The position numbers and the translations under genes were made by a program. The notes beneath the pieces are model-generated. The model was given only the letters and a program-made list of their open reading frames with translations. It was not told the DNA's origin and ran no database searches. A stretch of 62,030 bases of DNA from a virus (taxonomy: Duplodnaviria > Caudoviricetes): positions 1-62,030 of the IMG/VR virus record IMGVR_UViG_3300046167_000632; one strand, written 5' to 3'. How positions within the stretch are numbered: the first letter of the stretch is position 1; each line of letters begins with the position of its first letter. This document shows positions 26,601 to 60,163 of the stretch, piece after piece.

Positions 26601-29600
26601 CAGATGCTTTTACTATGAATGTATCTACCAATGGTGAAGGCATGAAGCTAGGTGAAGGAGAATCAGCAGCCGTTACAAAACGTAATGGTAAACTACATGT
26701 GGATGTTGATGTGTCTAAAATGAATGAAGGTACACTTCCTCATGAAATATATCACGTTGTTTCGCGTTTAACTTTCGGTAAAGACGTAGGTGTACAAAAA
26801 GCACTACAAGAAGGATTAGCTAAGTCTGTTGGTAAAATGGATTTTGAAACTGTTGATCCAAGAACTGGAGAAATAAGAAATATAGAAAACTTACCTGAAG
26901 CAGTTAAAGAAGCTTACGAAAAAACACAAGATAAGGATTCAACTTTTGAGGAATTTAACGCTAACTTAATTGACTTGCTAAGTAGACCTGAAAATAGAGA
27001 CATGTTAATAGAAAACAACGTCTTAGGATCTCTAAAGCAAAATATAAATACTTTTTTAGAAAAATCTTTAACAGGTACTGCTTTAGAAAATACAAAGCTA
27101 GGTAAGGTTTTATTACCTGAACTAAATAATCCTGATGCTGTTGTCAAGTTTTTATCTAGACTAAGTAAAGACTTTGGTAAAGGTAACTATAGCCCAAAAT
27201 TAATAAAGCGATTTCAAGATATAGAAATAACTAAAGACGGTAAGAAACTAATTGAGAAACAGACTGGTAAGGTATTAAACATAGATAAAACTGCTCAAAA
27301 AGAGTTAAAACAAGAGTCTTTAGACCTATCTAATGCAAATAAAAAAGCTTTTGAAGAGTTTGAAGCAACTGGAAACAAATCGGATCTTATAGGTAAGGTT
27401 TATGAAAATAATCAAGGTTTAATACAAAGCTTTGTAAATAGAAAATTTGTAAAAGGATTAGGCGTATCAAGAGAGATGTTTGAAGGGGAGGTTGGATCAG
27501 AGATATACGATAAAATTCTCGGTACTTATTTAAAAAGAGATGCTAAATTAAAAGACGTGCCGTTTGGCGCTTATGCTAGACAAGCCTTGTTTGGTGGCGG
27601 TGCTTTTGGTGGAGGTAGACTTGGTAATATACTAAAAAGACTAGGCCAGCAAGGTGACTTATTTAATAAAGATCTTGAAAGTAAAGAAGCACAATCTGTG
27701 ATGTCTGAGGAGACTAGAGATTTTGATGAAAAAATTGTTTCGGAAAACAAAAAAACAGATCCTAAAGAACTACAATTAAGTATAGATGTTGTAAATGATT
27801 TAGTACCTGAAGTACAGAAAGATTTACAAGAAAAAAGCTTAACTAAAGAAACATATAAATCTTTAAGATTAGGGGAAAACGCTGCTAAAGCTCTAGCGAA
27901 GGCATACGATATACGTGAAAAAGATAAAACAACATCTGATGGTAAAAAGGTTAAAGGAGATTTACTACCAGAGTGGTTCACGGTACCCGCTAGAAACTTA
28001 CCCCAAGGTTCTATGGAAGGTTTTAGAAAATTAAGATCTGAGCTAAACAAAAATGCTCAAATGGTACTTAATATTTTACCTGAAGGTTACACGTTGGATA
28101 AAAAGTCTACAGGTGTGCCAAACTCTATACAAGAAGCATTTTACAATAAAAGAAAAATAGGTAGTAAGAACGTATATGAATTAAAGAAAAACATAAGTAT
28201 AAAGGATGTAAAAGATTTACTAAAAGAGCCAGAAGGTAAATTATATAGAGATAAACAAGTTCAACAGATAAAAGGCTTAGCGGAGTTAGTGTTTAGAGGT
28301 CTGGTGAATAACGTTGCTAGATCAAATATGAAAATAGAAGGAGCAACAGCTATAGAGTTACAGAAGTTAGCTGATGGTAAAAATCCTATGCTAGCTCAAC
28401 AGGTGCTAGGTAAATTAAAAAATACACCTGGACTAAACGAAGTTACTATTAAAAGATTAATTGGTAATTTTTTAGTAGATAGAGAAAAGTTAAGAGAAAC
28501 TAATCCTACTTTTGTAGAAAGATTTGAAAGCGAAATTATACAAGATAATATAGCTAAGGCTGAAGAAGGCAAAGCTGACGCTCCAACATTTAAGACTTCA
28601 GATAAAGCTGATATTAAAATAGCGGAGATAAATGGTGCGCCTAAAGGCGTTGATATAAGCAATATCATAGATGGCAACACCGGTAAGTCTATGCGTTCAA
28701 CAGAGACTTTTAAAAGAAAAACTGGTAAGTTTAAAAAAGGAGTATTTATAAAAGGTACTGAAGGTCCTGAGATGAAAAGATCTATATTTGATACAGCTAG
28801 ACTTGAAACCTTTTTAGATGGAATAAGTGAACTTTCAAAGTATTACCCTGAAGATTTACAGAAATATTTTACTAAAGAGGTTCTACTACAGTCGTTTGGA
28901 AGTACTAGTAGAGGTACCGCTAGAAATGTAGGTAAGGATGCTAGAAAAATAACCACAGAAGGTAAGTTGATGTCAGAGAGTGATCTTAGTAAAGGTCAGT
29001 ATGAAAGAATAACAGATAACCTAGGAAAGCTATATAAAGAAGGTGTATTTGATAATATAGAGCCTGGAGATTTTATGAGTGATGCACAGCAAAAGAATGC
29101 GTTACAAAAATTTCAAAATACCGGAGATATAAATGTTCTTAATAAATACATAAATTCTAAAGATAACGCATATAAATCAGATGTTTATTACGCTATGGGC
29201 GTTGCTAAGCAAAAATATTTATATGATGCTAAAACTTCAGCTGAATTCGAAAAAAGAGCAAAAGTTATATATCAATTAGCAGCTGAGAATAGTGGAGCTA
29301 CTTCTGGTTATGGTAGACAGTTTGTACCTATAATGGCTGTAAAGAAAACAGGTGAACCTGGTAGAATGAAGTTGGAACATTTAAAGTCCTCCTTAGAGCA
29401 GTCGATGCAAGAAGCTAAAGCTATTGTAGAAGGTAGATGGATGAAAGATGGTAAAAAAATAATGAACGACTATAAGGGTATTATATCTTTCAAAAAATAC
29501 CTAGACGTAATAGACAAGTTAGGTGGTGTTACAAATACTTCTGGTTTAGCTAGGATGGTTTTAGATTTCGAAAACTTAAAAGACTACGTAACTGTTGAAA

Positions 29601-32600
29601 GTGGTTTTAAAGAAACTCTATACGATAAATTAATGACTGATAATGCTCAGCGTGTTGGAGCAAAATTAAGAGAGCTAAATGTGCCGTGGATGAAAGACAA
29701 GGTTGCTGCAATATCTCTAGAACCTAGTAAATCTAATGAAGTTTTACTAAAAAGTTCTTTAGATAATAAAGCAGATGTTAAGTCTAGCTGGAAAGCCAAC
29801 GTTGAGTTGTCTAAGAAAGCAGGTACTTTAGACAATAAAAACTCTAGTAATGCTGAATTACTTGAAAATTTAAAAAATAGAGATAAAGCTATTAGCTTAG
29901 CTCAGAAGAAATTAAAAGAAACTAAAAAAGCTAGAGTCTTTGATTTTGATGATACGCTAGCTAGAACTAAAAGCAACGTGCTGTATACAATGCCTAATAA
30001 TGAAGGAGGTTTCAGCAAAGGTTCTACTAAATTAAAAGCTATATTTATGGTTGGTGGTCCTGGCGCTGGTAAAACAAACGTAGGTAAAGGACTACAGCTA
30101 GGTAGAAGAGGTTATAAAGTAGTTAATCAAGATATAGCTCTTGAAGCTATGAAAACAGAATCCGGATTACCTGCTAATGAATCAAACTATACAGCTGAGC
30201 AAAGATCAATTAGGTCTAAGTTAGGTTCTGCCGCTAGAAAAGCAGCTGTAGCTAAGTTCGATAAGTATGCCGCTAATGGAGACGGTATGGTAATTGATGG
30301 CACTGGCGCTTCATATAACGCTACTACTAAAAAGATAAAAGCATTACAAGAAAAAGGCTATGAAGTACATATGGTTGTAGCTAACACACCGTTAGAAACA
30401 GCATTAGAAAGAAACAGAGCTAGAAAAGAAAGATCACTAGAAGATTTTATTGTAGAAAAAACTTATAACCAAGTTCAAGAAAGTTTAGCTAAATATAGAG
30501 AGGATTTTGGAGATCGTTTATACGAAATAAATACTGAAGCTATAGAGTACGGAAAACCACTTCCAGGTGATTTCCTGCAAGGAGTTTACAAAGGAATAAA
30601 CGCTAACAAAGTAGGTAAAGTAGATGCTGCTACATTTGCTAAAGAAGCGGGTAATATGGAAGCTCAAGGAGCTCAATGGGATTTCTCTGAGTTTAGTAAG
30701 GTGATGCAAGGTAGCAAAGGACCTTTATTCGAAGTAGCTAAGTCTATAAGTGAAAGCCCAGGTGAAAGAGATATGTTCGTATTAACAGCTAGACCAGCAG
30801 ATGCAGCTCCAGCTATAAAAAGTTTTTTAAAAGAACTAGGTTTAGATATACCGTTAGAAAACATAACAGGTTTAGCAAATGGAGCTCCATCGGCTAAAGC
30901 TAACTGGATGCTTAAGAAAGCAGCTGAAGGTTATAATGACTTTTACTTTGCTGATGATCACTTAGGTAATGTTAAAGCTGTTAAAGATGTATTAAGTGTA
31001 GTAGATGTTAAAAGCAAAGTACAATTAGCATTAGCACAGAAAAAGCTAGGAAAAACATTTAATGATATAATACAGGAAAAAACAGGTATAGCTTCAGAAA
31101 AAGTTTTTGGAGAAGCTAAAGCTGAAATAATGGGTAAAAGCAAAGGTAAGTTTGATGTATTTATATCACCAACCGCTGAAGACTTTGCTGGTCTACTATA
31201 CAAGACTTTACCAAAAGGTAAAAAAGGTGAAAATGCTCTTAAGTTCTACAAAGAAAACTTATTCGATCCATTTGCTAGAGCTGAGGACAATATTACTAGA
31301 GATCAAGTAGCATTAAGTAATGATGTTAGAGCTTTAAAAAATAGACTGGGTATAATACCTAAGAAACTAAGAAAGAAAAATGAAACAGGTTTTACTAACG
31401 AGCAGGCTTTAAGAGTTCGTATGTGGACAAAAATGGGTTTAGAAGTTCCTGGCTTAAGCAAGTCTGATACTAGCTGAACTTAATAAAGTCATAAAAGATA
31501 ACCCAACATATGAAGCTTTTGCAAATGAACTTCTATCAACAACTAAAGGTGATGGTTGGGCTGAACCAGGCGAAAGGTGGCTTAGCGGTACATTGACTAG
31601 TGATGCTATGGCATTACTTGGTAAAGTAAAAAGAGCTAAGTACTTGGAGCAGTGGAAGCAAAATAAAGATGAAATATTCTCAAAAGCTAATTTAAATAAA
31701 CTAGAAGCAGCTTATGGTAAGAAGTACAGGAAAGCATTAGAAAAGACCTTAGAAAGGATGCAGTCTGGAAGAAATAGAAATTCTAAAAACACGGCTGGCG
31801 ATAGAGCTTTAGATTATATAAATAACTCTGTTGGTGCTATAATGTTTTTAAATACAAGATCAGCTGTTTTACAAACAATTTCTAGTATAAACTTTATAAA
31901 CTGGACAGATAATAATCCTTTAAAAGCTGGCGCTAGACTAGCGGATGTAAAGCAATATTCTAAAGATTTCTTAGAGATAATGAATTCTGACTACTTAGTA
32001 GCTAGACGTGATGGATTAAAATTAAATGTAAGTGAGGCTGAAATAGCTGCAGATACAGGCGCTAAGGGTATAATAAATACAATACTAAAAAAAGGTTTTG
32101 TATTTACTAAATACGCTGATAGTTTTGCTATAGCTTCAGGTGGTGCTACTTTTTATAGAAATAGAATAAACACTTATAAAAAGCAAGGGCTATCTGAGAT
32201 AGAAGCTAAAGAAAAAGCTTTTATAGACTTTAAAGAAATATCTGAAGAATCTCAACAATCATCTAGAACAGATAAGATAAGTCAACAACAGGCTAGTAAC
32301 TTAGGTAGAGTTATTTTAGCTTTTGCTAATACACCAATGCAGTATGCTAGGTTGCAGAAAAAAGCTATGTTAGACCTCGCTAATAGAAGAGGGGATTGGA
32401 GAGAACATACATCTAAAATAGTTTACTACGGATTTGTACAAAACTTAATATTTAATGCAATACAAAATGCTTTATTTGGTTTAGCCTTCGCTGACGATGA
32501 GCAAGATGAAAAGTTACTGTCTAAATCAGGAAGAGTTGCTAACGGTATGGCTGATTCATTACTTAGAGGTACTGGTATACCAGGAGCAGTAGTTGCTTCA

Positions 32601-33764: not shown

Positions 33765-34085
33765 ATGAAAAGTATTTTAATTTTAATCGCATTTATATTA
33801 TCTTTTAACTTGTTTTCACAAGAGCCAACATTGCTCTATATGAATTCAGACTGGAACCACAACAATGATTACGAGTTTTTAAAATTAATAAAGGGTGCGA
33901 AGATATTGGAAGTAGACTACGATTCACAGCCTAAAAAATTTAAAGAAGCTATAAGCTCTGTACCTGCTATAATATTGTTTGATAAAAACAAGAAATTAAA
34001 AAAAATATGGCAAGCTGGTTTGACAATGAGATTAACTGTAGATCCTAAAGAAATACAAGAAGTTATAAATGAATTAAATAAATAG
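33765..34085 (+). CDS. secreted thioredoxin-like-fold protein lacking CxxC
   Basis: Signal peptide; 'NSDWN', 'ISSVPAIILF' (cis-Pro loop-like). Confidence 0.5.
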   Translation: MKSILILIAFILSFNLFSQEPTLLYMNSDWNHNNDYEFLKLIKGAKILEVDYDSQPKKFKEAISSVPAIILFDKNKKLKKIWQAGLTMRLTVDPKEIQEVINELNK

Positions 34086-34130
34086 GAACAAATATAATGG
34101 GCGTACCATACCCAACGTTCCTGTAACCAA

Positions 34131-34160
34131 GAAAGGGCCCTCATACGAGAGCCCTTTTTT
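34131..34160. terminator. intrinsic terminator between convergent arms
   Basis: AAAGGGCCCTC-ATAC-GAGAGCCCTTTTTT. Confidence 0.75.
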
Positions 34161-34248
34161 AATTACTTATACAGAAACGTGTATAGCATATTGAGTTTTT
34201 TATACACATTAGTTTTTATATGTATAAAAAAGTCATAACTTTTAGCAT

Positions 34249-48199: not shown

Positions 48200-48857
48200 T
48201 TTTTAATTCTTTAAATATTAATTCACCTTTAATGGCTCTTTCGATAGTTAGACCATAATGATTAGCTACAATCTCATACCTTGCTCTGTCTTTAATTATT
48301 TGACTAGCATAGTTTAAGTACCTATAGTCTTCATCTACTGTTAGATTTATAGCTCCTATATATAGTTTAGGTAGATCTTTGTTAAACTGATCGTCTTGAG
48401 AGATCATCTCTATGTATTGCAGTGTATTTATAGGGTTAACTACTTTATGGCTATAACCTTCATCAAGTAGCTCATCTATAATTTCGTCTTCGATTCTACA
48501 TAATAGATCTTCGTAGTGTCTAGTGATAGCATCTTCAACAAAGTCATAGTTGTCACAGTATATCTGATTGTAGTCAGGTATTGCTTCGTATAACACATCT
48601 GTAAGTTCGCTTTCATAGTAGTATACGTCTTCACTAACATTTATACTTTTGTCATTAGCAGTAGCAATCCACACAGAGTAACCATCAGCTGTTGATTCTT
48701 CGTATACACTGAAGTCAGGGTTTCGCCATTGATCAGTTATTTCACATTCGTAGTGTGCAAGCACTTGGTTTCTAGCGTGCTCATCATCGCAACCTTCGAT
48801 CCAGCCTTTTTCAGCCATTTTCTCAGTTATTAACTTATCTGTTATATACTTAGTCAT
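48189..48857 (-). CDS. acidic hypothetical protein
   Basis: 222 aa, D/E-rich. Confidence 0.7.
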   Translation of the reverse strand: MTKYITDKLITEKMAEKGWIEGCDDEHARNQVLAHYECEITDQWRNPDFSVYEESTADGYSVWIATANDKSINVSEDVYYYESELTDVLYEAIPDYNQIYCDNYDFVEDAITRHYEDLLCRIEDEIIDELLDEGYSHKVVNPINTLQYIEMISQDDQFNKDLPKLYIGAINLTVDEDYRYLNYASQIIKDRARYEIVANHYGLTIERAIKGELIFKELKNEN

Positions 48858-49098
48858 CTGTCTCTGATATTAAAATGTTATCACCATGTTTAAAATCCCA
48901 TGTAGAAACTCTAAAGAATTCTATATCAGCCCATGTATATAACGAGCTAACGTCACCTATAGTCAAGTCACTGTAGAACGTAGTGCTGTTTAACTTTGCT
49001 ATAATTAGTCTTACAGATGTACTGTATTTTTCTTCTTGCGAAGCTAGAGCTTCTTTGATTTCAGGCCTTAGCCTTTCGTAAATTGTTAATCTTGCCAT
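48850..49098 (-). CDS. hypothetical early protein
   Basis: Directly downstream of repeat copy 49113-49154. Confidence 0.65.
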   Translation of the reverse strand: MARLTIYERLRPEIKEALASQEEKYSTSVRLIIAKLNSTTFYSDLTIGDVSSLYTWADIEFFRVSTWDFKHGDNILISETDD

Positions 49099-49151
49099 TT
49101 TTATTTATTTAATTACATTTATATTATCCAACTTTATTTTAATTTTGTTTG

Positions 49152-49249
49152 TAACTAGTGAGGAATCGAACCTCATACCCGTCGGTAGCCATAGTCATTA
49201 TATGCTCGTGAAGACGTTTACATATTTCAGTACTAAACCTGACCTAGTT
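49152..49249 (-). ncRNA. tRNA-like RNA 1 (non-canonical)
   Basis: AACTAG/CTAGTT acceptor-like stem; TGAGG-TTCGATT-CCTCA T-arm; TACC-GACG-GGTA hairpin; no D stem or anticodon arm. Confidence 0.65.
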
Positions 49250-49334
49250 GCCGGCTATTATGTGATCGTTAATCGTATCTGTCGCCATCGGTTTTCTTAT
49301 TTAGATAGAGCTATATACCGTAAAACTCTTTTAG

Positions 49335-49425
49335 TAACTAGTTGAGGAATCGAACCTCAATACTCGTCAGTAGTATGCGCACCACGATCGAGCTAATGCC
49401 CCGGTAATCGCAACCATACCTAGTT
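49335..49425 (-). ncRNA. tRNA-like RNA 2 (non-canonical)
   Basis: Same acceptor stem and T-arm as RNA 1; TACT-GACG-AGTA hairpin; different central hairpin. Confidence 0.65.
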
Positions 49426-49618
49426 GCCGCTAGCTATTCGCTTATGTGTAGTCATCGAGCCGACGTCACGCTGTACCTCGTCGTTAGACTTCTCGCTGTG
49501 CTTAGTCGCCTTTAATCATACCTAATTAAGCTACTCGTCTAGCTATTTACTACCTTAGAGGATCTTCGTTAGCTTAACCACTTAAAATACCGTAGCCGTA
49601 CTAAGCCCTCCACCGTGT

Positions 49619-50071
49619 TTATATTCTTTTATATAATACACCATCAACTTCGATTACATCTTGCACTGAGTCTAAGTCGTAGTTTCTTATTAAGTATTTT
49701 TCTAGATACACTAATCTAGCAAGGCCGTTAGTTATTTTTACTCTTTGTACACCTGTGCAAGAGCTCACATTTAACTCGCTATTGTCACTAAGTGTCATAT
49801 AATAACTAGTTGTTGGTCTTTGAGGATTTATTTGGTAGCAAGATAAATCATTAAACCTACTTCTTATTATTTTACGAACCATACCTGATTTGTATGTAGC
49901 GAATTTACATAAACCATACTTTTTGTGGTTAAGTTGAAACGTTCTAGTTCCGTTTTTACGCTGTGTATTTGTAGTTACATCAGTTAGTAGTGGGTACTTA
50001 GCAAGCATTAACTCTACATACTTGTCTTCTAGCTCTTTTCGGCGAGCTTGCCAATGTGTTAGTGTATTCAT
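49619..50071 (-). CDS. hypothetical early protein
   Basis: Probable ATG at 50071 (MNTLTHW). Confidence 0.65.
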   Translation of the reverse strand: MNTLTHWQARRKELEDKYVELMLAKYPLLTDVTTNTQRKNGTRTFQLNHKKYGLCKFATYKSGMVRKIIRSRFNDLSCYQINPQRPTTSYYMTLSDNSELNVSSCTGVQRVKITNGLARLVYLEKYLIRNYDLDSVQDVIEVDGVLYKRI

Positions 50072-50072
50072 A

Positions 50073-50261
50073 TTATCTTCGTCTTTGTGATTTATGTACA
50101 AGCGCACTTAGCTCTTGACTTACTATTTGAATTGTATTACCTGTTTTATGGTAAGTAATTGGAACATAAGAATGTTTTTTTACTTCAGAACAGGGTGGAC
50201 ATGTCTTATATCCTAAGTTTAATCGGTAAGGGTGGACTTCGTCGCCGCATTTACAGTACAT
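50073..50261 (-). CDS. small zinc-finger protein (DksA/TraR-like C4 pattern)
   Basis: CKCG....RL..G..TCPPC; follows repeat copy 50281-50322. Confidence 0.55.
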   Translation of the reverse strand: MYCKCGDEVHPYRLNLGYKTCPPCSEVKKHSYVPITYHKTGNTIQIVSQELSALVHKSQRRR

Positions 50262-50307
50262 AGTTTATTATTTTTATTTGTTACATATATATTATCCAGT
50301 AGTAATT

Positions 50308-50733
50308 TTATTTTGTTTGTAAATAATTTAATACACTTGACCAATCAGGAAATTTATCACTACCAAACTGTATAAGTTCGCCACTGAACTCACCCGCACC
50401 GTTAGCCGTTCTGTCATCTATCAAGTAATCTCCACTTAATAAGTTTTTGTGGTTAGATAAGATCAACTTTTTATAAGCGTGTTTACCTAAGTGTTTACTT
50501 ACCCACATTCTCTTATGAGTCCATGATTCAGGCATACCCCATGGAGCAGTGGATAGTATATAAACATCAAAGCCATCGGTTTCGCATAACTTTTTAAATG
50601 CTTCAACCGCATAACCTATAGGTCGTAAGTCTTTAAATATATTTGAGTGCCAACCTGTTCTATTTAGCTCGGTTTGTAGATCAACAAGGACACCGTCCAT
50701 GTCTATGTATATTATCTTATTCTTGTTTTTCAT
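50308..50733 (-). CDS. 5'(3')-deoxyribonucleotidase (HAD, NT5C-like)
   Basis: IDMDGVL, ILST.P, K..W, LIDDR. Confidence 0.85.
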   Translation of the reverse strand: MKNKNKIIYIDMDGVLVDLQTELNRTGWHSNIFKDLRPIGYAVEAFKKLCETDGFDVYILSTAPWGMPESWTHKRMWVSKHLGKHAYKKLILSNHKNLLSGDYLIDDRTANGAGEFSGELIQFGSDKFPDWSSVLNYLQTK

Positions 50734-50923
50734 AATACTTTCTCTTAGTAGACATATACATTTTCTCGATAGCTAAGAACATAACCATATCGTGGAGTTC
50801 GTTATATTCATCTCCGTTAACGGGTTGATCTGCTATTTGCCAATCAATACTGTCTTCCATTAATTCCTTAGTTACGTCAGCAATACCTTGTGCTATTTCG
50901 TCTATTTCTTTCATCTTACTCAT
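50717..50923 (-). CDS. hypothetical acidic protein
   Basis: 68-aa ORF. Confidence 0.55.
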   Translation of the reverse strand: MSKMKEIDEIAQGIADVTKELMEDSIDWQIADQPVNGDEYNELHDMVMFLAIEKMYMSTKRKYYEKQE

Positions 50924-51046
50924 ATATTATTTCATCTAGTAGTTCATCTTTGTCAAATCCGTTATCAAGTGCAAGTTGAAATGCGTCAACACCATACTTT
51001 TCATTGAATTGCTTTATAGTTAATTTATTTGTTTTAAACTTATTCA

Positions 51047-51301
51047 TTACTTTTGGTTTAATATTGTTACTTCAACCCAACCTTTTTCTGAATGGTTAGC
51101 TTCACATTTAACACCAGCTTTAGTTAGTTCATCTTCTAGTTTTATCGCTGCATCCCATAAACTTGGTTCTGGTATCTCATCATGGTCATCGTCATAGAAC
51201 ACATCACCTCTACACTGAAAAAACCTATCGTCGTAGTCATTTTCTACGTATTCGAAATCCCATCCGTTAATTCTAGTATCTTGTTTCATCCACTCTTTCA
51301 T
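51047..51301 (-). CDS. hypothetical acidic protein
   Basis: 84-aa ORF. Confidence 0.6.
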   Translation of the reverse strand: MKEWMKQDTRINGWDFEYVENDYDDRFFQCRGDVFYDDDHDEIPEPSLWDAAIKLEDELTKAGVKCEANHSEKGWVEVTILNQK

Positions 51302-51428
51302 ATCTATAATTGATTTATTAGTTCTTGTACTTCATTAAACAGCATTTCATCTATCTGTTTTCTTGAATAGTGGTCTTTATACGCTTCGTATACTAAATCC
51401 CACGGGTTTTTAACTGGTTCGTCGTTCA

Positions 51429-51641
51429 TTATAAGAATTTTTTAACTTGTTCTTTGATTAATAATATATCTTTATCTGTTATGCGCATAGCTTGATCATA
51501 GTCTACGGTGTTCTGTATTATATCACTAAAGCTTTCCCACATCTTAAGATCCATTTGCATAGCAATAGAATCTATACTTTCCTCTGACAAACTTTGTTGA
51601 TCTTCTTGGATCTCATGCCATTTTTTTACTGAATCGCTCAT
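51429..51641 (-). CDS. hypothetical protein
   Basis: 70-aa ORF, coupled start/stop. Confidence 0.55.
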   Translation of the reverse strand: MSDSVKKWHEIQEDQQSLSEESIDSIAMQMDLKMWESFSDIIQNTVDYDQAMRITDKDILLIKEQVKKFL

Positions 51642-51844
51642 TAGTCTTGGTATTTTTTAAGTGTCATACTGTTTACTTTATCTATGATCTCGTTACCTAC
51701 TAAAGTAAAATAACCAGGTGCATATATAGATCTTTTACCATCAGCTTCAGCTGCTAATACATCTTTTTCTGCTTCTTCGATAGCGTGTTTTAACGCTGTT
51801 TGGATGAAATACTTTTCAAATCCATTAAATTTAGTTTTACTCAT
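51641..51844 (-). CDS. hypothetical protein
   Basis: 67-aa ORF, coupled start/stop. Confidence 0.6.
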   Translation of the reverse strand: MSKTKFNGFEKYFIQTALKHAIEEAEKDVLAAEADGKRSIYAPGYFTLVGNEIIDKVNSMTLKKYQD

Positions 51845-52110
51845 TATAGTGTCTTTTTTATTATTAGTAATTGCTTTGTGTCAAACTTCTTGTGAGTTTC
51901 TTGCCACATACGGTTGTGGGTGAACTTTCTAGCTTTTGCGAAGTTAGATTTCTGACGAGTTGTAATACTATTGTATTCTTTGTCAGTTAGTCCACCACAT
52001 ACACCGTTTGCTCGAACAGCACGTCTATGCCCGTCTGCTCGTGATTTTTTCTGTAGTTCCGAGTAAGCTAGTAGCTCTTTCATAGTTCTCGGGTTAGATA
52101 CTACGTCCAT
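51844..52110 (-). CDS. hypothetical basic protein
   Basis: 88-aa ORF. Confidence 0.55.
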   Translation of the reverse strand: MDVVSNPRTMKELLAYSELQKKSRADGHRRAVRANGVCGGLTDKEYNSITTRQKSNFAKARKFTHNRMWQETHKKFDTKQLLIIKKTL

Positions 52111-52295
52111 ATACTCTCAGGTTTTTGAATATAAGTTAAACCTTTGTAGTTGAACCATTGAGTTATACCTTCTCTGTCTTCATCCTCGTTATAGATGAAA
52201 GCAAACTTTCTAGGTAGATTACCTACAGTATAGCCTTTGAAGACAACACCGTTGAGTTTTATTGTACTTGAATTTTTAAATTTAATTTTCTGCAT
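52101..52295 (-). CDS. hypothetical early protein
   Basis: First gene after repeat copy 52313-52354. Confidence 0.6.
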   Translation of the reverse strand: MQKIKFKNSSTIKLNGVVFKGYTVGNLPRKFAFIYNEDEDREGITQWFNYKGLTYIQKPESIWT

Positions 52296-52827
52296 AGTTT
52301 ATTATTTATTATTTACATTTATATTATCCAATAGAAATATTATTTTGTTTGTAATTTTCTACTTGTATATCTCATTTATTAGATCTTGTACTAACATGTC
52401 TTCAGTCTCTTCCTCTGCAGGAATACAGTCCGTTTCTACAAATAGCTCGATCTTACGAACAGTTTGTTTTTTGCTTAAATAGCTACTTATAAATTTAAAG
52501 TAACTTATAGTTTCTTCTGACCAATAGAATAGACTCATACTACTTGAATTTAGCAGCGACTTCTTGTATTTCTACTTTGTCTTGATGATCTAATCCACTA
52601 GTTTGACTTGCGTACATTCTTAGTACATAGTGTACAAAGGTACAATCGCTTTCTGTAAGTTGTATATTTCTCATAATTAGTTTTTTATCGCCCAAGCAGC
52701 AGCGCTACCTAGTTTAGTTAATACTTTGTTTGCTTTTTTTAGTACTAATAGTACTTTGTGTGAAAATTTTATCATTGTTATTAGTTTATTATATTATCCA
52801 ATAGTTATTATTATTTGTTTGTAATTC

Positions 52828-53100
52828 TTAATCGCCTGTATACTCACCTGAGTATGTATTAGAATACCAATCTCTTCGCGCTTCGTGCACTAGATCTTGT
52901 ATTTGTAATAGATCTTGTCTTTGATCGATCAAGTGATCTATTTCATCTCGCATATCTTGCTCGCTTAGTTTAGTAAACATACTTGTTTCTAAGCCATCTA
53001 GTAAGTTTCTGTCATTGCAGTGATAGTTATCGTACTTGATACCATTCCAAGTCTCGCTTAGTATATAAGTATACTCTATATTTCTGTAAGTTTTAGTCAT
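52828..53100 (-). CDS. hypothetical early protein
   Basis: 90-aa ORF; stop abuts next repeat copy. Confidence 0.6.
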   Translation of the reverse strand: MTKTYRNIEYTYILSETWNGIKYDNYHCNDRNLLDGLETSMFTKLSEQDMRDEIDHLIDQRQDLLQIQDLVHEARRDWYSNTYSGEYTGD

Positions 53101-53240
53101 TATTAGTAGATTTATAAAAGTTAATTCTTGTAAGTATCTCGCATCGAGAGATCTTACCTTCCACTTGTAATAGTATATCGCTTGACATATCTATTTTTTT
53201 ACCATTAGGTAGATTTAGTATAAATTGCATAGTTTATAGT

Positions 53241-53360
53241 TTAGTAGAAGTCATAGTATATATCTATTACTTGAGATCTTTGATCACTAGTTAGTTCGTT
53301 AAAGTCTTTCTTGAATATTCTTCTTGATATTTTTAGTAAGGTATATGATTTTGTACACAT
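53241..53360 (-). CDS. 39-aa early peptide (not in ORF track)
   Basis: MCTKSYTLLKISRRIFKKDFNELTSDQRSQVIDIYYDFY*; similar to 55186-55356. Confidence 0.55.
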   Translation of the reverse strand: MCTKSYTLLKISRRIFKKDFNELTSDQRSQVIDIYYDFY

Positions 53361-53382
53361 AGTTTTATTATTTATTAGTTAG

Positions 53383-53458
53383 TAGTCGTTGGTGGAATCG
53401 AACCACCTCACAAAGTAGAGCTCACGTAGTCAAAATGCAGAGTGAAACCGTTACGACT
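53383..53458 (-). ncRNA. tRNA-like RNA 3 (non-canonical)
   Basis: AGTCGT/ACGACT acceptor-like stem; GGTGG-TTCGATT-CCACC T-arm; GGTT after the 5' strand as in RNAs 1 and 2. Confidence 0.6.
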
Positions 53459-53475
53459 TGTTTGATCTGAGAGTA

Positions 53476-53703
53476 CTATTTTTCTAGTACTTCTCGAGCG
53501 ATCACTGGTACACTAGTTGAAGAAGTGTAAGACTTGTACTTAATGAAGCACGCCATATTTTCCAGTTTAGACTTCATTACTTCATACACTTTATCGTGAT
53601 TGTAGGTAACTGTTTTACCATTTTTGAAGTTGACAGTGATTAACTGATTTTTACCGATTAGAGATTTTCTGATTACAAATCTTTTTGAAATTAAAGTTGA
53701 CAT
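53476..53703 (-). CDS. early protein, paralog of 54857-55087
   Basis: About 51/75 identical residues by hand count; has its own promoter repeat. Confidence 0.8.
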   Translation of the reverse strand: MSTLISKRFVIRKSLIGKNQLITVNFKNGKTVTYNHDKVYEVMKSKLENMACFIKYKSYTSSTSVPVIAREVLEK

Positions 53704-53790
53704 AGTTAAAATTATTTAGTTATTATTATTATTATTATTAGTTTGTTACATTTATATTATCCAAATGGAATATTATTTTGTTTGTAAAAT

Positions 53791-53958
53791 TTATATAGTT
53801 TTAAAAGTTATAAAGTTTTTAGTTAATAGTTTTGGAATATCAATATTAGAAGGATTATTAATAATTTTAAGTTTATTATTTAAAGTTATAATATTAATAT
53901 AATTATTAGTTAATAAGTTAGTAGTTTGTTTAATTTGGTATTTATTTATTAAAAACAT
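53791..53958 (-). CDS. 55-aa ORF with G-less coding strand (not in ORF track)
   Basis: MFLINKYQIKQTTNLL...FITFKTI*; fills the space between two repeat copies; 2 G in 168 nt. Confidence 0.55.
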   Translation of the reverse strand: MFLINKYQIKQTTNLLTNNYINIITLNNKLKIINNPSNIDIPKLLTKNFITFKTI

Positions 53959-54198
53959 AGTTATTATTTTTTAAAGTTTATTATTATTATTTATTTTCAT
54001 TAATATTATCCAATACTTAATTTATTTTGTTTGTAAAAGGTGTATAATTATTTATTAGTAAAAATAGTTACAGAAGTATAATACTCTTTCTCTTCTTGTA
54101 CAATACAGAAAGTTTCTCGTAGGACGGAGTCTACTCTTCCGATCTTGTTTCAGAATCAGGCCTGCAATGGAACACTAAACTTAGTTTCTCAAAAAGTG

Positions 54199-54241
54199 TG
54201 ACATTTGCCTATTAGATTAAGATAGTAACAGGCTATTGTCA
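54199..54241. promoter_or_regulatory. spaced palindrome copy B
   Basis: TGACATTTGCC-N21-GGCTATTGTCA. Confidence 0.7.
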
Positions 54242-54245
54242 CAGT

Positions 54246-54395
54246 TTACAGATGCTCATCAACTAGCATGTTGAGATCATCCCACAGTTTTCCAGTTTGT
54301 TTAGTATCATACACATCATAGATTGTATATACTTTATTGTCCACTGTCAATTCATAAAGATCATTGTCTTGATCAATTTTAAATGATACTACCAT
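54246..54395 (-). CDS. 49-aa acidic early peptide (not in ORF track)
   Basis: MVVSFKIDQDNDLYEL...LVDEHL*. Confidence 0.5.
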   Translation of the reverse strand: MVVSFKIDQDNDLYELTVDNKVYTIYDVYDTKQTGKLWDDLNMLVDEHL

Positions 54396-54559
54396 TGTTT
54401 TCTAGGATTAAATTTGATTTGTACAACATATTCATTTTTCTCTTGATCATCATCTCTGTGATCACAATATTCTGAGAAGTCTATTATTTTTGATTGATCC
54501 AGTGTATCATAAAATTTGTTGAGGTTTGAGATCCCTGTGATCATTTTTTCTATTATCAT
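54389..54559 (-). CDS. 56-aa early peptide (not in ORF track)
   Basis: MIIEKMITGISNL...NPRKQW*, preceded by AAT-rich leader. Confidence 0.5.
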   Translation of the reverse strand: MIIEKMITGISNLNKFYDTLDQSKIIDFSEYCDHRDDDQEKNEYVVQIKFNPRKQW

Positions 54560-54560
54560 A

Positions 54561-54620
54561 ATTATTAGTTTTATTATTATTAGTTTATTATTATTAGTTT
54601 ATTATTATTAGTTTATTATA
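54561..54620. repeat. 14-bp tandem repeat, ~4 copies
   Basis: (ATTATTATTAGTTT)n forming the leader of the 54559 ORF. Confidence 0.75.
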
Positions 54621-54778
54621 TTATTTAGTTGTGCTAAATTTTGTTTTAGGTTTTGAATATTATTAATTGAAATTAGGTGATTTTTTAGATAATTGTTTTT
54701 TAAGTGTTCTGGTGTAATTGTAGTTGAAGGGTGAAATAGATTTTTGTGAGTTAAGATTTGGTTGATTAATTTTTGCAT
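54608..54778 (-). CDS. 56-aa ORF with G-poor coding strand (not in ORF track)
   Basis: MQKLINQILTHKNLFHP...AQLNNIIN*; follows repeat copy 54808-54849; 3 G in 171 nt. Confidence 0.55.
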   Translation of the reverse strand: MQKLINQILTHKNLFHPSTTITPEHLKNNYLKNHLISINNIQNLKQNLAQLNNIIN

Positions 54779-54856
54779 AGTTGTTAATTATTTAAGTTAT
54801 TATTTATTTACATTTATATTATCCAAGTTGGATTTCGTTTTGTTTGTAGTAAGATC

Positions 54857-55087
54857 TTAATCAGTTATGATTAATGATCTTGTAACTACAGGCATTGAAG
54901 TTGATGAAGTGTATGATTTATACTTAGCCCAACAGTTCATTGTTTCAAGTTTTGGTTTCATAACATTGTATACATCGTCGTGATTGTACTTTGAAACTTT
55001 TCCGTTTTTGAATGTTACTTCAATGATTTGATTTTTTCCGATTAATGATTTGCGAACAACAAATCTTTTTGATTTTAAGATTGACAT
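54857..55087 (-). CDS. early protein, paralog of 53476-53703
   Basis: Shared SKRFV.RKSLIGKNQ and KYKSYTSSTS blocks. Confidence 0.8.
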   Translation of the reverse strand: MSILKSKRFVVRKSLIGKNQIIEVTFKNGKVSKYNHDDVYNVMKPKLETMNCWAKYKSYTSSTSMPVVTRSLIITD

Positions 55088-55185
55088 AATTTATTTATTT
55101 TATTTAGTTATTATTAATTATTTATTTCATATATATTATCCATTATATATATTATTTTGTTTGTAAGTAGTTTACGATAATTCGA

Positions 55186-55356
55186 TCAAGATTTCCTGGA
55201 TAGATCGAAATCGTTACGAGCTGCCCAAGCCTTGAGCTCAGGGATTGGACCGAAGAAGATCTCTTCGACTGATCCGCGTTGATCATGATCAAGCTCCGCG
55301 TAAAGCTTTTGGTGAAGACTCATTGAGATCTTATCAATTGTGGTAAGGTATGACAT
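55186..55356 (-). CDS. 56-aa first gene of the early arm (not in ORF track)
   Basis: MSYLTTIDKISMSLHQKLYAELDHDQRGSVEEIFFG...SRKS*; between two repeat copies. Confidence 0.6.
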   Translation of the reverse strand: MSYLTTIDKISMSLHQKLYAELDHDQRGSVEEIFFGPIPELKAWAARNDFDLSRKS

Positions 55357-55483
55357 ATTTTGTGATTTAGATGTAGAGCTTAATTGCTTACATATATATT
55401 ATCCATGATCATATGTGTTATGTTTGTGAAATCAGCTCTACGAAAATGATCGATGATCACAGTATGGATCGATCCTACGAGGC

Positions 55484-58609: not shown

Positions 58610-60163
58610 ATGGATGCAATAGTTAAAAATCTAAACTTCGGAGAGAAGGCTAGAAAAAACGTCTATGAGGGTATAGACAAGTTAACAAAAGCTGTAAGCT
58701 CTACATTAGGTGCTAGCGGTAAATGCGTTATGCTAGAAGATCACACTGGTAAACCAATAATAACAAAAGACGGTGTTACAGTGGCAGAGTCAGTTATATT
58801 AAGAGATCCAGTTGAAAACATGGGAGCTACGCTTTTAAAAGAAGCGGCTCGTAAAACTGTTAAAGAGGCTGGCGATGGTACAACTACAGCTACAGTACTT
58901 GCTCATGCAATACTTACTGAGGCTTACGAAGTCTTAGATAAAACAAATAGTAGAGATTTAAAAGAAGGTATTGACAAGTCTGTTGAAGCTGTTGTAGATT
59001 ACTTAAAAGAGAACTCTGTAGAAGTAACTGATGACATGCTAGATCAAGTAGCTACTATATCAACCAACAACGATCCTGAATTAGGTAAGATAATTGGTGA
59101 TGCTTTTAGGTTAGTTGACTTAACAGGTGTTGTCGTAATGGAACCTACAGAAGATAATGAAACTTCGGTTGAATTAGTCGAAGGTGTAGAGTATGACAAA
59201 GGACTTGTAAACTCACATTTTGTAACAAGCAAAACAAAAAGAGCTGCAGAACTTGAAAACGCTTTAGTGTTAATAGTAGAATCACCAGTTGAGTCTATAA
59301 GAAAAATACAAAGTGTTTTAGAATATGTTATAAAGAATAACAAGGCTTTATTAGTCATAGCTGATTGTGAACAAAGCGTTATATCGGCACTGGCAATGAA
59401 TAAGGTTAAGGGTAATATAAAAGTAAACGTCATAAACGCACCTACATATGGTGTAAGCAAAAAAGATACATTAAATGACTTAGCACTATTAACTGGCGCT
59501 ACAGTTATAAATGAAGATCTTGGAGATGATATGGACCTTATACAACCAGAATATCTAGGAAGTTGCTTAAAAAGCATTACAACAGACCTAGAGACTATAA
59601 TACAAGTAGAGGATAATAATCCAGATGTAGAAAAACTAGTCAAAGACTTAAGACATCAAATAGAAACAACTAAAAATCCTAACGAGATAATAAGACTAGA
59701 AAGAAGACTTGGTAGAATATCGGCTAAGGTTGCTATTGTCAAGGTTGGGGCAAATTCTGAAATAGAATTAAAAGAAAAACAGGATAGGGTTGAAGACGCT
59801 ATCTGTGCTACTAAAGCCGCAATAAAAGAAGGTATTGTTTCTGGTGGTGGCATTGCACTCCTAAATGCATCAAACAAAATAAAAGCAAAAACAGTAGGGG
59901 AGAAAGTTTTATTGAAGGCAATAAAGGCTCCATTTAAAACAATACTAAGTAATGCCGGTATAGATAAATACGACAAGCCTGATGCTGATGGTAAAGGATT
60001 AAACGTGGTTACAGGAAATATGGTAAATATGATAGACTCAGGAATTATCGATCCTTTACTAGTAACTAAAAGCGCTTTAAGAAACGCGGCTTCTGTAGCA
60101 TCAACAATACTATCTACTGATTGTGTAATTAATAACTTGAGGATTGATGATAGCAATAGGTAG
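58610..60163 (+). CDS. groEL: chaperonin GroEL
   Basis: [44 protein letters not shown]. Confidence 0.97.

What the first reader, a model, noticed from the sequence alone, without database searches (positions are those of the whole stretch)
49250..49618. Larger duplicated ncRNA unit upstream of tRNA-mimics 1 and 2
Seen: this GC-richer tract has no credible ORF. The leaders of both mimics share ordered blocks on the minus strand: TACGGTAT (49587, 49315), ATAGCT, GGCGAC (49505, 49281), TAACGA (49481, 49266), CACATAA (49442, 49258), ATAGC..CGGC. These are separated by inserts of different length, and the longer copy has a GCTTAGT/ACTAAGC pairing. Conserved short blocks with variable inserts are typical of a structured RNA core. 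Inference: a ribozyme-like or protein-binding domain coupled to the tRNA-like domain, conceptually like Y RNAs or tRNA-adjacent ribozymes, but not matched to either.
Basis: partly seen in the sequence, partly recalled or inferred. Interest (0 to 1): 0.75.

Follow-up and report, generated by a model that had tools for sequence, protein, structure and literature searches.

The report
Modular phage RNA array with tRNA-like ends
The tract is not one RNA unit copied twice but a chain of different structured-RNA modules, one of them a widespread and apparently undescribed phage motif, that end in two tRNA-like elements behind a small zinc-finger gene.

Summary
Their local alignment is at chance level, and only the order of the blocks is unusual. 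Only the 3' halves of the two tRNA-like elements are clearly homologous.

Leader 1 has two parts. One is a hairpin (Y, 49556-49612). The other is a three-helix motif (X, 49426-49548) with invariant internal loops and a variable tip. X occurs in 89 IMG/VR phage contigs and shows strong covariation (93% of cells paired against 22-40% in slid controls). It matches no Rfam family. A covariance model finds it only once in the window.

Leader 2 (W, 49251-49329) is a different conserved block. In relatives it sits in series with X.

X directly follows one small zinc-finger gene family in 54 of 84 cases. A same-strand tRNA-like element or tRNA-Met follows it within 500 nt in 68 of 72 cases.

Best reading: this is the untranslated tail of a short early transcription unit, made of swappable RNA modules. 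The tRNA-like elements probably act as processing and stability handles, and X probably binds a protein. Function is inferred, and expression could not be checked.

The parts
50287..50299 (-). promoter-like motif (CTGGATAATATAT, a 2-mismatch variant of TTGGATAATATAA) about 25 nt before the zinc-finger gene
   Evidence: 18 matches with up to 2 mismatches in the window, 0 of 100 shuffles reach 18. The five exact copies are all on the minus strand in 49119-54826.
50073..50261 (-). 62-aa zinc-finger gene (CxC...CxxC, basic C-terminus). Its family directly precedes motif X in most relatives.
   Evidence: 54 of 84 X instances, gap -1 to about 3 nt; 58 distinct members; invariant C3, C5, C21, C24. 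No Pfam, PHROG or NCBIfam family.
49619..50107 (-). 162-aa ORF of unknown function, lying between the zinc-finger gene and the RNA array in this phage and in 5 relatives
   Evidence: L002-L006, 45-95% identity; no family
49556..49612 (-). module Y: hairpin directly after the stop codon.
   Evidence: fold. Conserved in L002-L006. In L004 the inner stem differs from the window only by one-sided changes that keep it paired through G-U pairs (no compensatory change), and its loop has another sequence.
49426..49548 (-). module X: P1, a 7-nt/6-nt internal loop (ACGAGUA / GAAUNG), P2, an internal loop (AUUAG / ACA) and P3
   Evidence: covariance model R1 scores 68.5 bits, E 1.6e-14, and is the only hit in the window. 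Covariation on 60 sequences. 89 IMG/VR contigs carry the 18-nt 5' strand.
49448..49521 (-). P3 of X with a nested insert (module Z).
   Evidence: P3 ranges from an 8-nt GGGAAACC hairpin to about 140 nt. The same insert base (ATGATTAAAGGCG...CGGCTCGATGA) also occurs in L044, L085, L058 and L042, and outside X in L066, L061 and L092.
49335..49425 (-). tRNA-like element 1 (type A): acceptor AACUAG/CUAGUU, UAUGG, variable body, hairpin UACU-GACG-AGUA, T arm UGAGG-UUCGAUU-CCUCA, then A73 and C
   Evidence: Not called a tRNA by ARAGORN or Rfam.
49251..49329 (-). module W (leader 2): AGAGUUUUACGGUAUAURGCUCU hairpin, a GAAAACCGA block and a GGC...GCC-closed insert
   Evidence: conserved in 7 relatives plus the window. 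No covariation: 0 of 13 predicted pairs show a compensatory change.
49152..49249 (-). tRNA-like element 2 (type A). Its body carries a hairpin with the conserved 16-nt loop UAAACGUYUUCACGAG.
   Evidence: The closing stem of the 16-nt loop differs between the window, L004, L006, L014 and L053 while staying paired.
49119..49131 (-). exact copy of the promoter-like motif TTGGATAATATAA, 20 nt after tRNA-like element 2 and before the next gene (48850-49098)
   Evidence: No minus-strand intrinsic terminator in 48700-50400.

Best explanation
The tract 49152-49612 (minus strand) is the untranslated 3' part of a short early transcription unit. The unit runs: promoter-like motif at 50299, zinc-finger gene, a 162-aa ORF, then the RNA array. 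The array is a chain of independently folding RNA modules in the order Y hairpin, X motif with a nested insert in its tip, tRNA-like element A1, W block, tRNA-like element A2. It is not one unit copied twice.

Shown:
- X is a real, strand-specific RNA structure found in many uncultured relatives of flavobacterial podoviruses.
- X sits directly behind the zinc-finger gene's stop codon in most relatives.
- A tRNA-like element or a real tRNA-Met nearly always follows X on the same strand.
- The same small hairpin modules recur at the tip of X, in the body of tRNA-like elements, or free-standing.

Inferred mechanism:
- The array is transcribed with the upstream genes.
- The tRNA-like elements mimic the acceptor/T-arm half of tRNA, so host RNase P cuts at their 5' side and RNase Z or exonucleases trim after A73. 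This would release stable pieces.
- The tRNA-like elements and X serve as scaffolds that carry exchangeable hairpins.
- The invariant loops of X include an AGUA/GAA arrangement that I recall as typical of loop-E (bulged-G) motifs. They probably bind a protein. The adjacent zinc-finger protein is the first candidate.

The second tRNA-like element most likely arose by partial duplication or recombination between type-A elements. The close relative L002 has a single hybrid element whose junction lies inside the shared CTAC(Y)GACG stretch.
For: Structure of X:
- 93.3% of 889 cells are paired, against 22.5-39.5% when the 3' partners are slid by 1-3 columns. There are 162 cells with changes on both sides, reached by 0 of 500 shuffles. 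Ten of 15 pairs show compensatory change.
- Pair 18-111 is G-U in 55 of 60 sequences, which fits RNA of this strand only.

Spread:
- 89 viral contigs carry the 18-nt 5' strand.
- The model finds one copy per locus, 90 hits over 96 sources.
- Of the 10 loci fetched without using X (L002-L011), 6 have it.

Not previously filed:
- Rfam 15 gives nothing in the window.
- Rfam gives only tRNAs and sub-threshold tmRNA hits in relatives.

Linkage:
- The zinc-finger gene is directly upstream of X in 54 of 84 instances.
- A same-strand T-arm element follows within 500 nt in 68 of 72 cases, and none lies on the opposite strand. The background is 0.10 T-arm motifs per kb of strand.
- The first downstream element is type A in 29 cases, tRNA(CAU) in 13, type B in 12, type C in 10, type D in 3, other in 1 and none in 4.

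tRNA-likeness of type A:
- Exact GGTTCGATTCC T-loop.
- Acceptor 87.8% paired; the four-pair hairpin 100% paired with 16 doubly changed cells.
- The trailer after the acceptor is A then C (ACTAA or ACAAA in type A). The ACTA form is the one behind the tRNAs of the cultured relative Maribacter phage Panino and behind most phage tRNA(CAU) genes in the loci.

Transcription unit: promoter-like motifs at 50287-50299 and 49119-49131, with no terminator between them.

The two units are different.

Hybrid element in L002.
Against: - No expression data.
- Thermodynamic folds of the window's own sequences are no better than shuffles.
- W has no covariation. The acceptor of type A is almost invariant: one compensatory change in 34 sequences.
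- The type-A elements match neither the tRNA nor the tmRNA model, even at E up to 10. Most have 11 rather than 12 stacked pairs, so processing by RNase P or RNase Z is an assumption.
- L005, a close relative, lacks the T arm altogether, so the tRNA-like element is dispensable at least there.
- The conservation of the X loops is partly by construction, because the loci were fetched with the 18-nt 5' strand and the 3' strand was picked by a pattern.
- Nothing shows that the zinc-finger protein binds RNA. It has no family and its model is poor (pLDDT 63).
Confidence: 0.55

Rival explanations
1. The whole array, possibly with the neighbouring modules seen in relatives, acts as one large multi-domain RNA. 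It would resemble the phage RNAs GOLLD and ROOL, which lie near tRNA islands and assemble into cages. The tRNA-like elements would be structural parts and would not be cut out.
For: - GOLLD and ROOL are encoded in phages, often near tRNA islands. One GOLLD lies downstream of a Met-tRNA in a marine sample, and tRNAs can sit inside GOLLD's variable region (passages of PMC12286853).
- Here too the array is in a marine phage beside tRNA-Met in relatives.
- A minimal tRNA-like element is nested inside P3 of X in L070, L074, L075 and L080, where cutting it out would split X.
- Many module tips are GAAA tetraloops.
Against: - No Rfam GOLLD or ROOL match in the window or in 24 relatives' loci, even at E up to 1.
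- Module content and order differ widely between close relatives. L002 and L005 lose 184 nt or more. That is hard to reconcile with one fixed architecture.
- No long-range pairing was found.
Confidence: 0.17
2. X is mainly a cis-acting tail of the zinc-finger gene's mRNA. After RNase P cuts at the downstream tRNA or tRNA-like element, the stable X hairpin is left as the mRNA's 3' end and protects it, or it controls read-through into the stable-RNA genes. On this reading the tRNA-like elements are only entry sites for processing.
For: - X starts at or within 3 nt of the stop codon in the largest cluster of cases.
- No room for a promoter, and no terminator, lies between the gene and the array.
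- X can be followed directly by a real tRNA(CAU), in 13 of 72 cases.
Against: - Plain 3' protection does not need about 27 invariant loop nucleotides.
- In the window and 5 relatives another ORF and hairpin Y separate the zinc-finger gene from X. X is also found behind at least 7 other gene clusters (30 of 84 instances).
- It does not explain the conserved hairpins carried inside the tRNA-like elements.
Confidence: 0.15
3. One reading: one larger ribozyme-like or protein-binding domain, coupled to a tRNA-like domain, is present in two copies that differ by inserts.
For: - The collinear chain of five shared 6-mers is reached in only 4 of 1000 shuffles.
- Both leaders end in CACATAA...TAGC...CGGCAACTAGG.
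- The 3' halves of the two tRNA-like elements are about 90% identical.
Against: - The model of X has one hit in the window and none in leader 2.
- The alignment score is at chance level, 463 of 1000 shuffles.
- X and W occur in series before a single tRNA-like element in L006, L038, L065 and L072.
- Only 1 of 72 arrays, the window's own, has two type-A elements in tandem.
- No ribozyme family matches.
Confidence: 0.06
4. The tract is the decaying remnant of a phage tRNA island, made of tRNA pseudogenes and spacer debris with no function of its own.
For: - The cultured relative Panino has 15 annotated tRNAs at a tRNA island with the same ACTA trailer.
- The window has no tRNA at all.
- L005 has lost the T arm.
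Against: - Compensatory changes keep the helices of X and the hairpin of type A.
- Each tRNA-like type keeps its own acceptor sequence across many contigs, while the body changes by whole modules rather than by point decay.
- X is phage-restricted and found in 89 contigs.
Confidence: 0.05

Closest known systems
GOLLD and ROOL RNAs (large ornate phage and prophage RNAs near tRNA islands)
   Same: Both are phage-borne, lie next to or interleaved with tRNA genes (one GOLLD lies downstream of a Met-tRNA in a marine sample), combine conserved and variable parts, and have unknown function (passages of PMC12286853).
   Different: No match to their Rfam models. Here the conserved core, X, is only about 55-60 nt plus an insert. 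Module order varies between close relatives, and multimer formation is untested.
tmRNA tRNA-like domain alone, as in mycobacteriophage DS6A ('TLD only')
   Same: In both, a phage encodes an acceptor/T-arm mimic with no anticodon arm. In relatives of the window, element types B and C match the Rfam tmRNA model end to end at 33.4-42.6 bits (gathering score 47) and carry G3-U70 with A73. Such a molecule was reported to inhibit tmRNA, perhaps by titrating SmpB (passage of PMC4131195).
   Different: The window's own elements (types A and E) have C3-G70 or U3-A70 and get no tmRNA or tRNA hit. Type A has an extra GACG hairpin before the T arm.
Bacterial Y-RNA-like YrlA (a tRNA-like domain joined to a Ro60-binding stem)
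   Same: Both are modular RNAs in which a tRNA mimic is joined to a protein-binding module (abstract of PMC4201824 seen in the listing; details recalled).
   Different: No Rfam Y-RNA or YrlA hit. The phage has no TROVE/Ro60 gene. The acceptor of the window's elements is a free end and is not continued into a stem.
Self-cleaving ribozymes next to phage tRNAs (HDV-like 'theta' ribozymes; recalled, not looked up)
   Same: Both are small conserved structured RNAs adjacent to tRNA genes in phages, with a possible role in maturation.
   Different: X lies 5' of the tRNA-type element and matches no ribozyme family in Rfam. Cleavage is untested.
Anonymous candidate structured RNAs from IMG/VR (PMC10690425)
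   Same: That survey mined intergenic regions of IMG/VR and reports 8495 candidates, including 'tRNA or tRNA-like' ones (passages). X or the tRNA-like elements may be among them.
   Different: The main text describes none with this architecture.

Membership tests
tRNA (Rfam RF00005; ARAGORN) | Full cloverleaf recognised by tRNA finders (D arm, anticodon arm with a 7-nt loop) | tested here: not met
   ARAGORN finds 0 genes in the window. Rfam gives no tRNA hit at the gathering score or at E up to 10.
tRNA (Rfam RF00005; ARAGORN) | T arm with a GTTCRANYC loop, stacked on a 6-7 bp acceptor stem, then a discriminator base | tested here: met
   Exact GGTTCGATTCC at 49162, 49346 and 53394 on the minus strand. 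Acceptor pairs are 87.8% paired over 34 type-A sequences. A73 follows.
tmRNA tRNA-like domain (Rfam RF00023) | Match to the tmRNA model over both ends; G3-U70 with A73 | tested here: not met
   Window: no hit at E up to 1; type A has C3-G70. Relatives' types B and C reach 33.4-42.6 bits, below the gathering score of 47.
Y RNA / YrlA | Rfam model match, and a Ro60 (TROVE) gene in the same genome | tested here: not met
   No Rfam hit. PF05731 is absent from the 96%-complete phage record, while the control genomes gave hits.
GOLLD / ROOL | Match to the Rfam covariance models | tested here: not met
   No hit in the window, in 16 loci at the gathering score, or in 8 loci at E up to 1.
GOLLD / ROOL | Phage-encoded, beside tRNA genes | tested here: met
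Known self-cleaving ribozymes (hammerhead, twister, HDV-like and others in Rfam) | Model match | tested here: not met
Known self-cleaving ribozymes (hammerhead, twister, HDV-like and others in Rfam) | Site-specific self-cleavage | not testable with these tools
   Needs in vitro transcription of 49420-49560.
Tandem duplication of one leader-plus-mimic unit | Both leaders alignable, or both hit by one model | tested here: not met
   Alignment at chance level, 463 of 1000 shuffles. One hit of the X model in the window.
Tandem duplication of one leader-plus-mimic unit | Both tRNA-like elements are homologous | tested here: met
   37 nt at about 90% identity, 0 of 1000 shuffles. Both align in the type-A family.

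The most novel reading that the evidence does not exclude
These phages may run a natural 'RNA scaffold and cargo' system. X and the tRNA-like elements would be stable carriers, matured by the host's tRNA-processing enzymes, that display a swappable library of aptamer-like hairpins. Together with the tmRNA-like, alanine-identity elements of relatives, these hairpins would titrate host factors such as SmpB, AlaRS, ribonucleases or defence proteins early in infection. The co-transcribed zinc-finger protein would bind the invariant loops of X.
Probability: 0.2. Interest if true: 0.9.

Novelty: new variant of a known kind. Interest (0 to 1): 0.72.

Why it matters
- **New motif.** X appears to be a new, well-supported RNA motif. 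It is confined to phages: 89 viral contigs, against 1 true hit in one genome for each of 185,579 species, and that hit lies on a 6.7-kb contig.
- **Coupled parts.** X is tied to a new small zinc-finger protein family and to several families of tRNA-like RNAs.
- **Early genes.** This gives a concrete system for asking why phages place ornate RNAs beside tRNA genes, an open question for GOLLD and ROOL.
- **tmRNA-like elements.** The relatives' elements may also show that phage inhibition of ribosome rescue, so far hinted at by one mycobacteriophage, is common in marine flavobacterial phages.
- **Annotation.** Such tracts should not be called tRNA genes or left as empty spacers.

Tried and rejected
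- **Single-sequence folding** of both units and all three tRNA-like elements gave z-scores from -0.79 to +0.69, so it is uninformative.
- **blastn of the tract against GenBank phages** gave no match. The 37-nt 5' part of X gave four partial chance hits at E of 2 or more.
- **Cultured relatives:** the X model gave nothing in three of them (MW202828, Maribacter phage Panino, Flavobacterium phage elemoE), without a positive control in that call. My first trailer pattern was off by one base and found nothing. The corrected pattern found six annotated tRNAs in Panino only.
- **Zinc-finger protein:**
  - Pfam, PHROGs and NCBIfam gave nothing significant.
  - A PDB profile search gave 0 hits.
  - tblastn against GenBank phages gave 0 hits.
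  - The 177 relatives in the protein search are unnamed or called hypothetical, apart from two rows labelled 'UPF0212 family' by JGI.
  - The AlphaFold model has pLDDT 63.2, too poor for a fold search.
  - The protein atlas suggested zf-dskA_traR at 0.88, which is a lead only. Zero of 40 family members match that Pfam family, so I dropped it.
- **W structure:** no covariation.
- **DNA-level element (origin or recombination site):** rejected because of the strand-specific G-U pair and the gene-sense orientation in all cases.
- **Literature:** searches for a description of such phage RNAs found none. The supplements of PMC10690425 could not be read.
Full report
**Setting**

The window is an IMG/VR virus record of 62,030 bases, estimated 96% complete.
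- Its terminase and virion proteins match PHROG families.
- A structural protein is 45-51% identical to those of an uncultured podovirus, Maribacter phage Panino, Flavobacterium 'elemo' phages and Cellulophaga phages. It is therefore a relative of flavobacterial podoviruses.
- DNA runs that hold the stretch are marine, seawater or freshwater metagenomes.
- Genes around the finding lie on the minus strand. The tract is the 520-bp gap between ORF 49619-50107 and ORF 48850-49098.

**Check of the observation**

- The tract is G+C-richer than its flanks and has no minus-strand ORF of 30 aa or more.
- ARAGORN calls no tRNA in the window. Rfam gives nothing at its gathering scores, nothing at E up to 10 within 48900-49900, and only two unrelated weak hits elsewhere at E up to 1.
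- Three exact GGTTCGATTCC T-loop motifs lie on the minus strand: two in the tract and one at 53394-53404.
- Statistics:
  - The two leaders do not align better than shuffles. The score is 16.5 against a mean of 16.4, and 463 of 1000 shuffles score at least as high.
  - Their ordered chain of five 6-mers is reached by only 4 of 1000 shuffles.
  - The two tRNA-like elements share 37 nt at about 90% identity (0 of 1000 shuffles).
- Single-sequence folding is uninformative.

**Relatives**

| How the loci were found | Loci or contigs |
|---|---|
| The neighbouring 162-aa protein | 5 (L002-L006) |
| The conserved 3' part of the tRNA-like element | 5 more (L007-L011) |
| An 18-nt stretch of leader 1, GACGAGTAGSTTAATTAG | 89 viral contigs |

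The 18-nt pattern occurs in only 4 contigs among one genome for each of 185,579 prokaryote species. Only one of these, on a 6.7-kb contig, is a true match to the model (59.5 bits). The other three are partial. GenBank phages have no match.

**What leader 1 is**

Directly after the stop codon comes a hairpin, Y (49556-49612). It is conserved in L002-L006.

Motif X follows at 49426-49548.
- I aligned 60 sequences (59 of the 71 distinct instances of 125 nt or less, plus the window).
- They support three stacked helices, P1, P2 and P3.
  - 93.3% of cells are paired, against 22.5-39.5% in slid controls.
  - 162 cells are changed on both sides, reached by 0 of 500 shuffles.
  - 10 of 15 pairs show compensatory change.
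- Between the helices lie invariant loops: ACGAGUA opposite GAAUNG, and AUUAG opposite ACA. From memory, the AGUA/GAA arrangement is that of loop-E (bulged-G) motifs, which often bind proteins. That is a recalled resemblance, not a test.
- One pair is G-U in 55 of 60 sequences, so the structure belongs to RNA of the gene-sense strand.
- P3 ranges from an 8-nt GGGAAACC hairpin to about 140 nt.
- In the window, P3 holds a nested insert (49448-49521).
- Caveat: part of the loop conservation is by construction, because the loci were fetched with the 5' strand and the 3' strand was picked by a loose pattern. Six of the 10 loci fetched by other means also carry X.

**What leader 2 is**

A covariance model of X, run with filters off, finds one copy in the window at 68.5 bits. 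The next hit scores 18.7 bits and lies in coding sequence. Nothing is found in 49250-49335.

Leader 2 is a different block, W (49251-49329).
- It is conserved almost letter for letter in seven relatives and always stands just before a type-A tRNA-like element.
- In L006, L038, L065 and L072 the order is X, then W, then one tRNA-like element. X and W are therefore neighbours in a series, not copies.
- W shows no covariation.
Y occurs without any ACTAAGC nearby in 4 of 5 relatives.

**The tRNA-like elements**

Both elements of the tract belong to one family, type A, with 34 distinct sequences. Its parts, in order, are:
- the acceptor AACUAG(G), pairing with CUAGUU;
- U-N-N-GG;
- a body that varies by whole hairpins;
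- a four-pair hairpin with an invariant GACG loop, 100% paired, with 16 doubly changed cells;
- a canonical T arm;
- then A and C.

The shortest members have no variable body and are about 52-54 nt from acceptor to A73 (the 63- and 65-nt sequences include flanks). The body of element 2 carries a 16-nt loop, UAAACGUYUUCACGAG. Its closing stem differs between phages while staying paired.

A third element of another type (E) lies at 53383-53458.

A scan of all loci gave 159 distinct T-arm elements. They fall into type A, three types with G3-U70 and A73 (B, C and D), type E and real tRNA(CAU) genes. In most of them the acceptor is followed by the trailer ACTA, though type A often has ACAA and one tRNA(CAU) class has CCTA. 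The 3' ends of annotated tRNAs in the cultured relative Panino have the ACTA trailer.

Types B and C match the Rfam tmRNA model end to end at 33.4-42.6 bits, below the gathering score of 47. A 'tRNA-like domain only' tmRNA is on record for mycobacteriophage DS6A. Such a molecule was reported to inhibit tmRNA, perhaps by titrating SmpB (passage of PMC4131195). The window itself has none of these types.

**Architecture and linkage**

- Of 72 distinct X instances with at least 500 nt of downstream sequence, 68 have a same-strand T-arm element within 500 nt, and none has one on the opposite strand. The background is 0.10 T-arm motifs per kb of strand.
- The first downstream element is:

| First element after X | Cases (of 72) |
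|---|---|
| Type A | 29 |
| tRNA(CAU) | 13 |
| Type B | 12 |
| Type C | 10 |
| Type D | 3 |
| Other | 1 |
| None within 500 nt | 4 |

- Only the window has two type-A elements in a row.
- Twenty-nine of 32 type-A elements have X within 450 nt upstream.
- Upstream of X, 54 of 84 instances have one family of 62-64-aa zinc-finger proteins, with a gap of about -1 to 3 nt. In the window this gene is 50073-50261, and the 162-aa ORF and Y lie between it and X.
- The protein family has invariant cysteines and a basic tail. It has no known family or solved relative. It occurs only in environmental data.
- A promoter-like motif, TTGGATAATATAA, occurs five times exactly on the minus strand in 49119-54826. 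A variant lies just upstream of the zinc-finger gene, and an exact copy lies 20 nt after tRNA-like element 2. No minus-strand terminator lies between them. The array is therefore most simply the tail of a unit that starts at about 50299.

**Module exchange**

- The same small hairpins recur at the tip of X, in the body of tRNA-like elements and free-standing. Examples are ACCGCGGCGAAAGCAAAGGU and a GAAAUAGGAG...CACACUAAC hairpin.
- A minimal tRNA-like element is even nested in P3 of X in L070, L074, L075 and L080.
- L002 is the closest relative, with a neighbouring protein 95% identical. It has a single hybrid type-A element that joins the 5' part of element 1 to the 3' part of element 2, inside the shared CTAC(Y)GACG stretch. 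It lacks W. So either the window gained 184 nt or L002 lost them by recombination.
- L005 has lost the T arm altogether.

**Interpretation**

Shown:
- X is a strand-specific structured RNA motif that is new to Rfam.
- The two leaders are different modules.
- The array is tightly linked to the zinc-finger gene and to T-arm elements.

Inferred:
- The array is co-transcribed with the upstream genes.
- It is cut by RNase P and RNase Z at the tRNA-like elements.
- X and the tRNA-like elements act as carriers of exchangeable hairpins.
- X binds a protein, perhaps the zinc-finger protein.

The main rivals are a single large GOLLD/ROOL-like RNA (passages of PMC12286853) and a purely cis-acting mRNA tail.

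Expression could not be examined.

**Novelty**

- Literature searches found no description of this motif or architecture.
- A survey of IMG/VR lists 8495 anonymous candidate RNAs in supplements that I could not open (passages of PMC10690425), so X may already have an anonymous identifier.
- I rate it a new variant of a known kind: structured RNAs at phage tRNA islands, and tRNA mimics.

Noticed in passing
window 53383-53458 (minus): A third tRNA-like element of another type (acceptor AGUCGU/ACGACU, T arm GGUGG-UUCGAUU-CCACC, then A-CUAA). It lies directly after a 75-aa ORF and before the next gene. The same type occurs in L002, L006, L065, L072 and L089.
   Followed up: partly
window 49119-55406 (minus): The promoter-like motif TTGGATAATATAA occurs exactly at 49119, 52319, 52789, 53752 and 54814. 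Near-variants lie at 50287, 54001, 55131, 55394, 37654 and 39076. All are on the minus strand, about 20-25 nt before start codons, and 0 of 100 shuffles reach the count. It fits neither the sigma-70 consensus used by the scan nor, as I recall it, the Bacteroidetes promoter consensus.
   Followed up: partly
window 50073-50261 (minus); 58 distinct relatives in L002-L094: A new family of 62-64-aa zinc-finger proteins (CxC-x15-17-CxxC, conserved YSY(V/I)PI motif, C-terminal WRRK). It has no Pfam, PHROG, NCBIfam or PDB relative and is found only in viral and metagenome data. It is almost always followed at once by motif X.
   Followed up: partly
L008, L009, L012, L017, L022, L024, L031, L056, L069, L085 and others: tmRNA-like elements that consist of the tRNA-like domain only. 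They carry G3-U70 and A73, and a swappable hairpin takes the place of the mRNA-like part. Rfam tmRNA scores are 33.4-42.6 bits, below the gathering score of 47. They may inhibit trans-translation. The window has none.
   Followed up: partly
L070, L074, L075, L078, L080: A 46-47-nt minimal tRNA-like element (acceptor, a CUACGGUACUAAGG loop and a T arm) is nested in the tip (P3) of motif X.
   Followed up: no
L005:3501-3700: A close relative (neighbouring protein 89% identical) in which the type-A tRNA-like element is cut off after about 18 nt and joined to the 3' part of the promoter-like region. It is a natural deletion, or an assembly fault.
   Followed up: no
window 23654-31477 (plus): A 2607-aa ORF in the structural gene block. 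I did not analyse it.
   Followed up: no
window 58610-60163 (plus): A phage-encoded GroEL-like chaperonin (PHROG 5725, E 5.5e-134).
   Followed up: no
window 34065-34170 (minus): A weak Rfam match to MicX (30.2 bits against a gathering score of 75, E 0.009), next to the ribonucleotide reductase gene. Probably chance.
   Followed up: no
PP540027.1 27557-27889 (L108): In Maribacter phage Panino a 'tmRNA' is annotated that overlaps the annotated tRNA-Asp and tRNA-Thr genes and a small CDS. The annotation looks doubtful.
   Followed up: no
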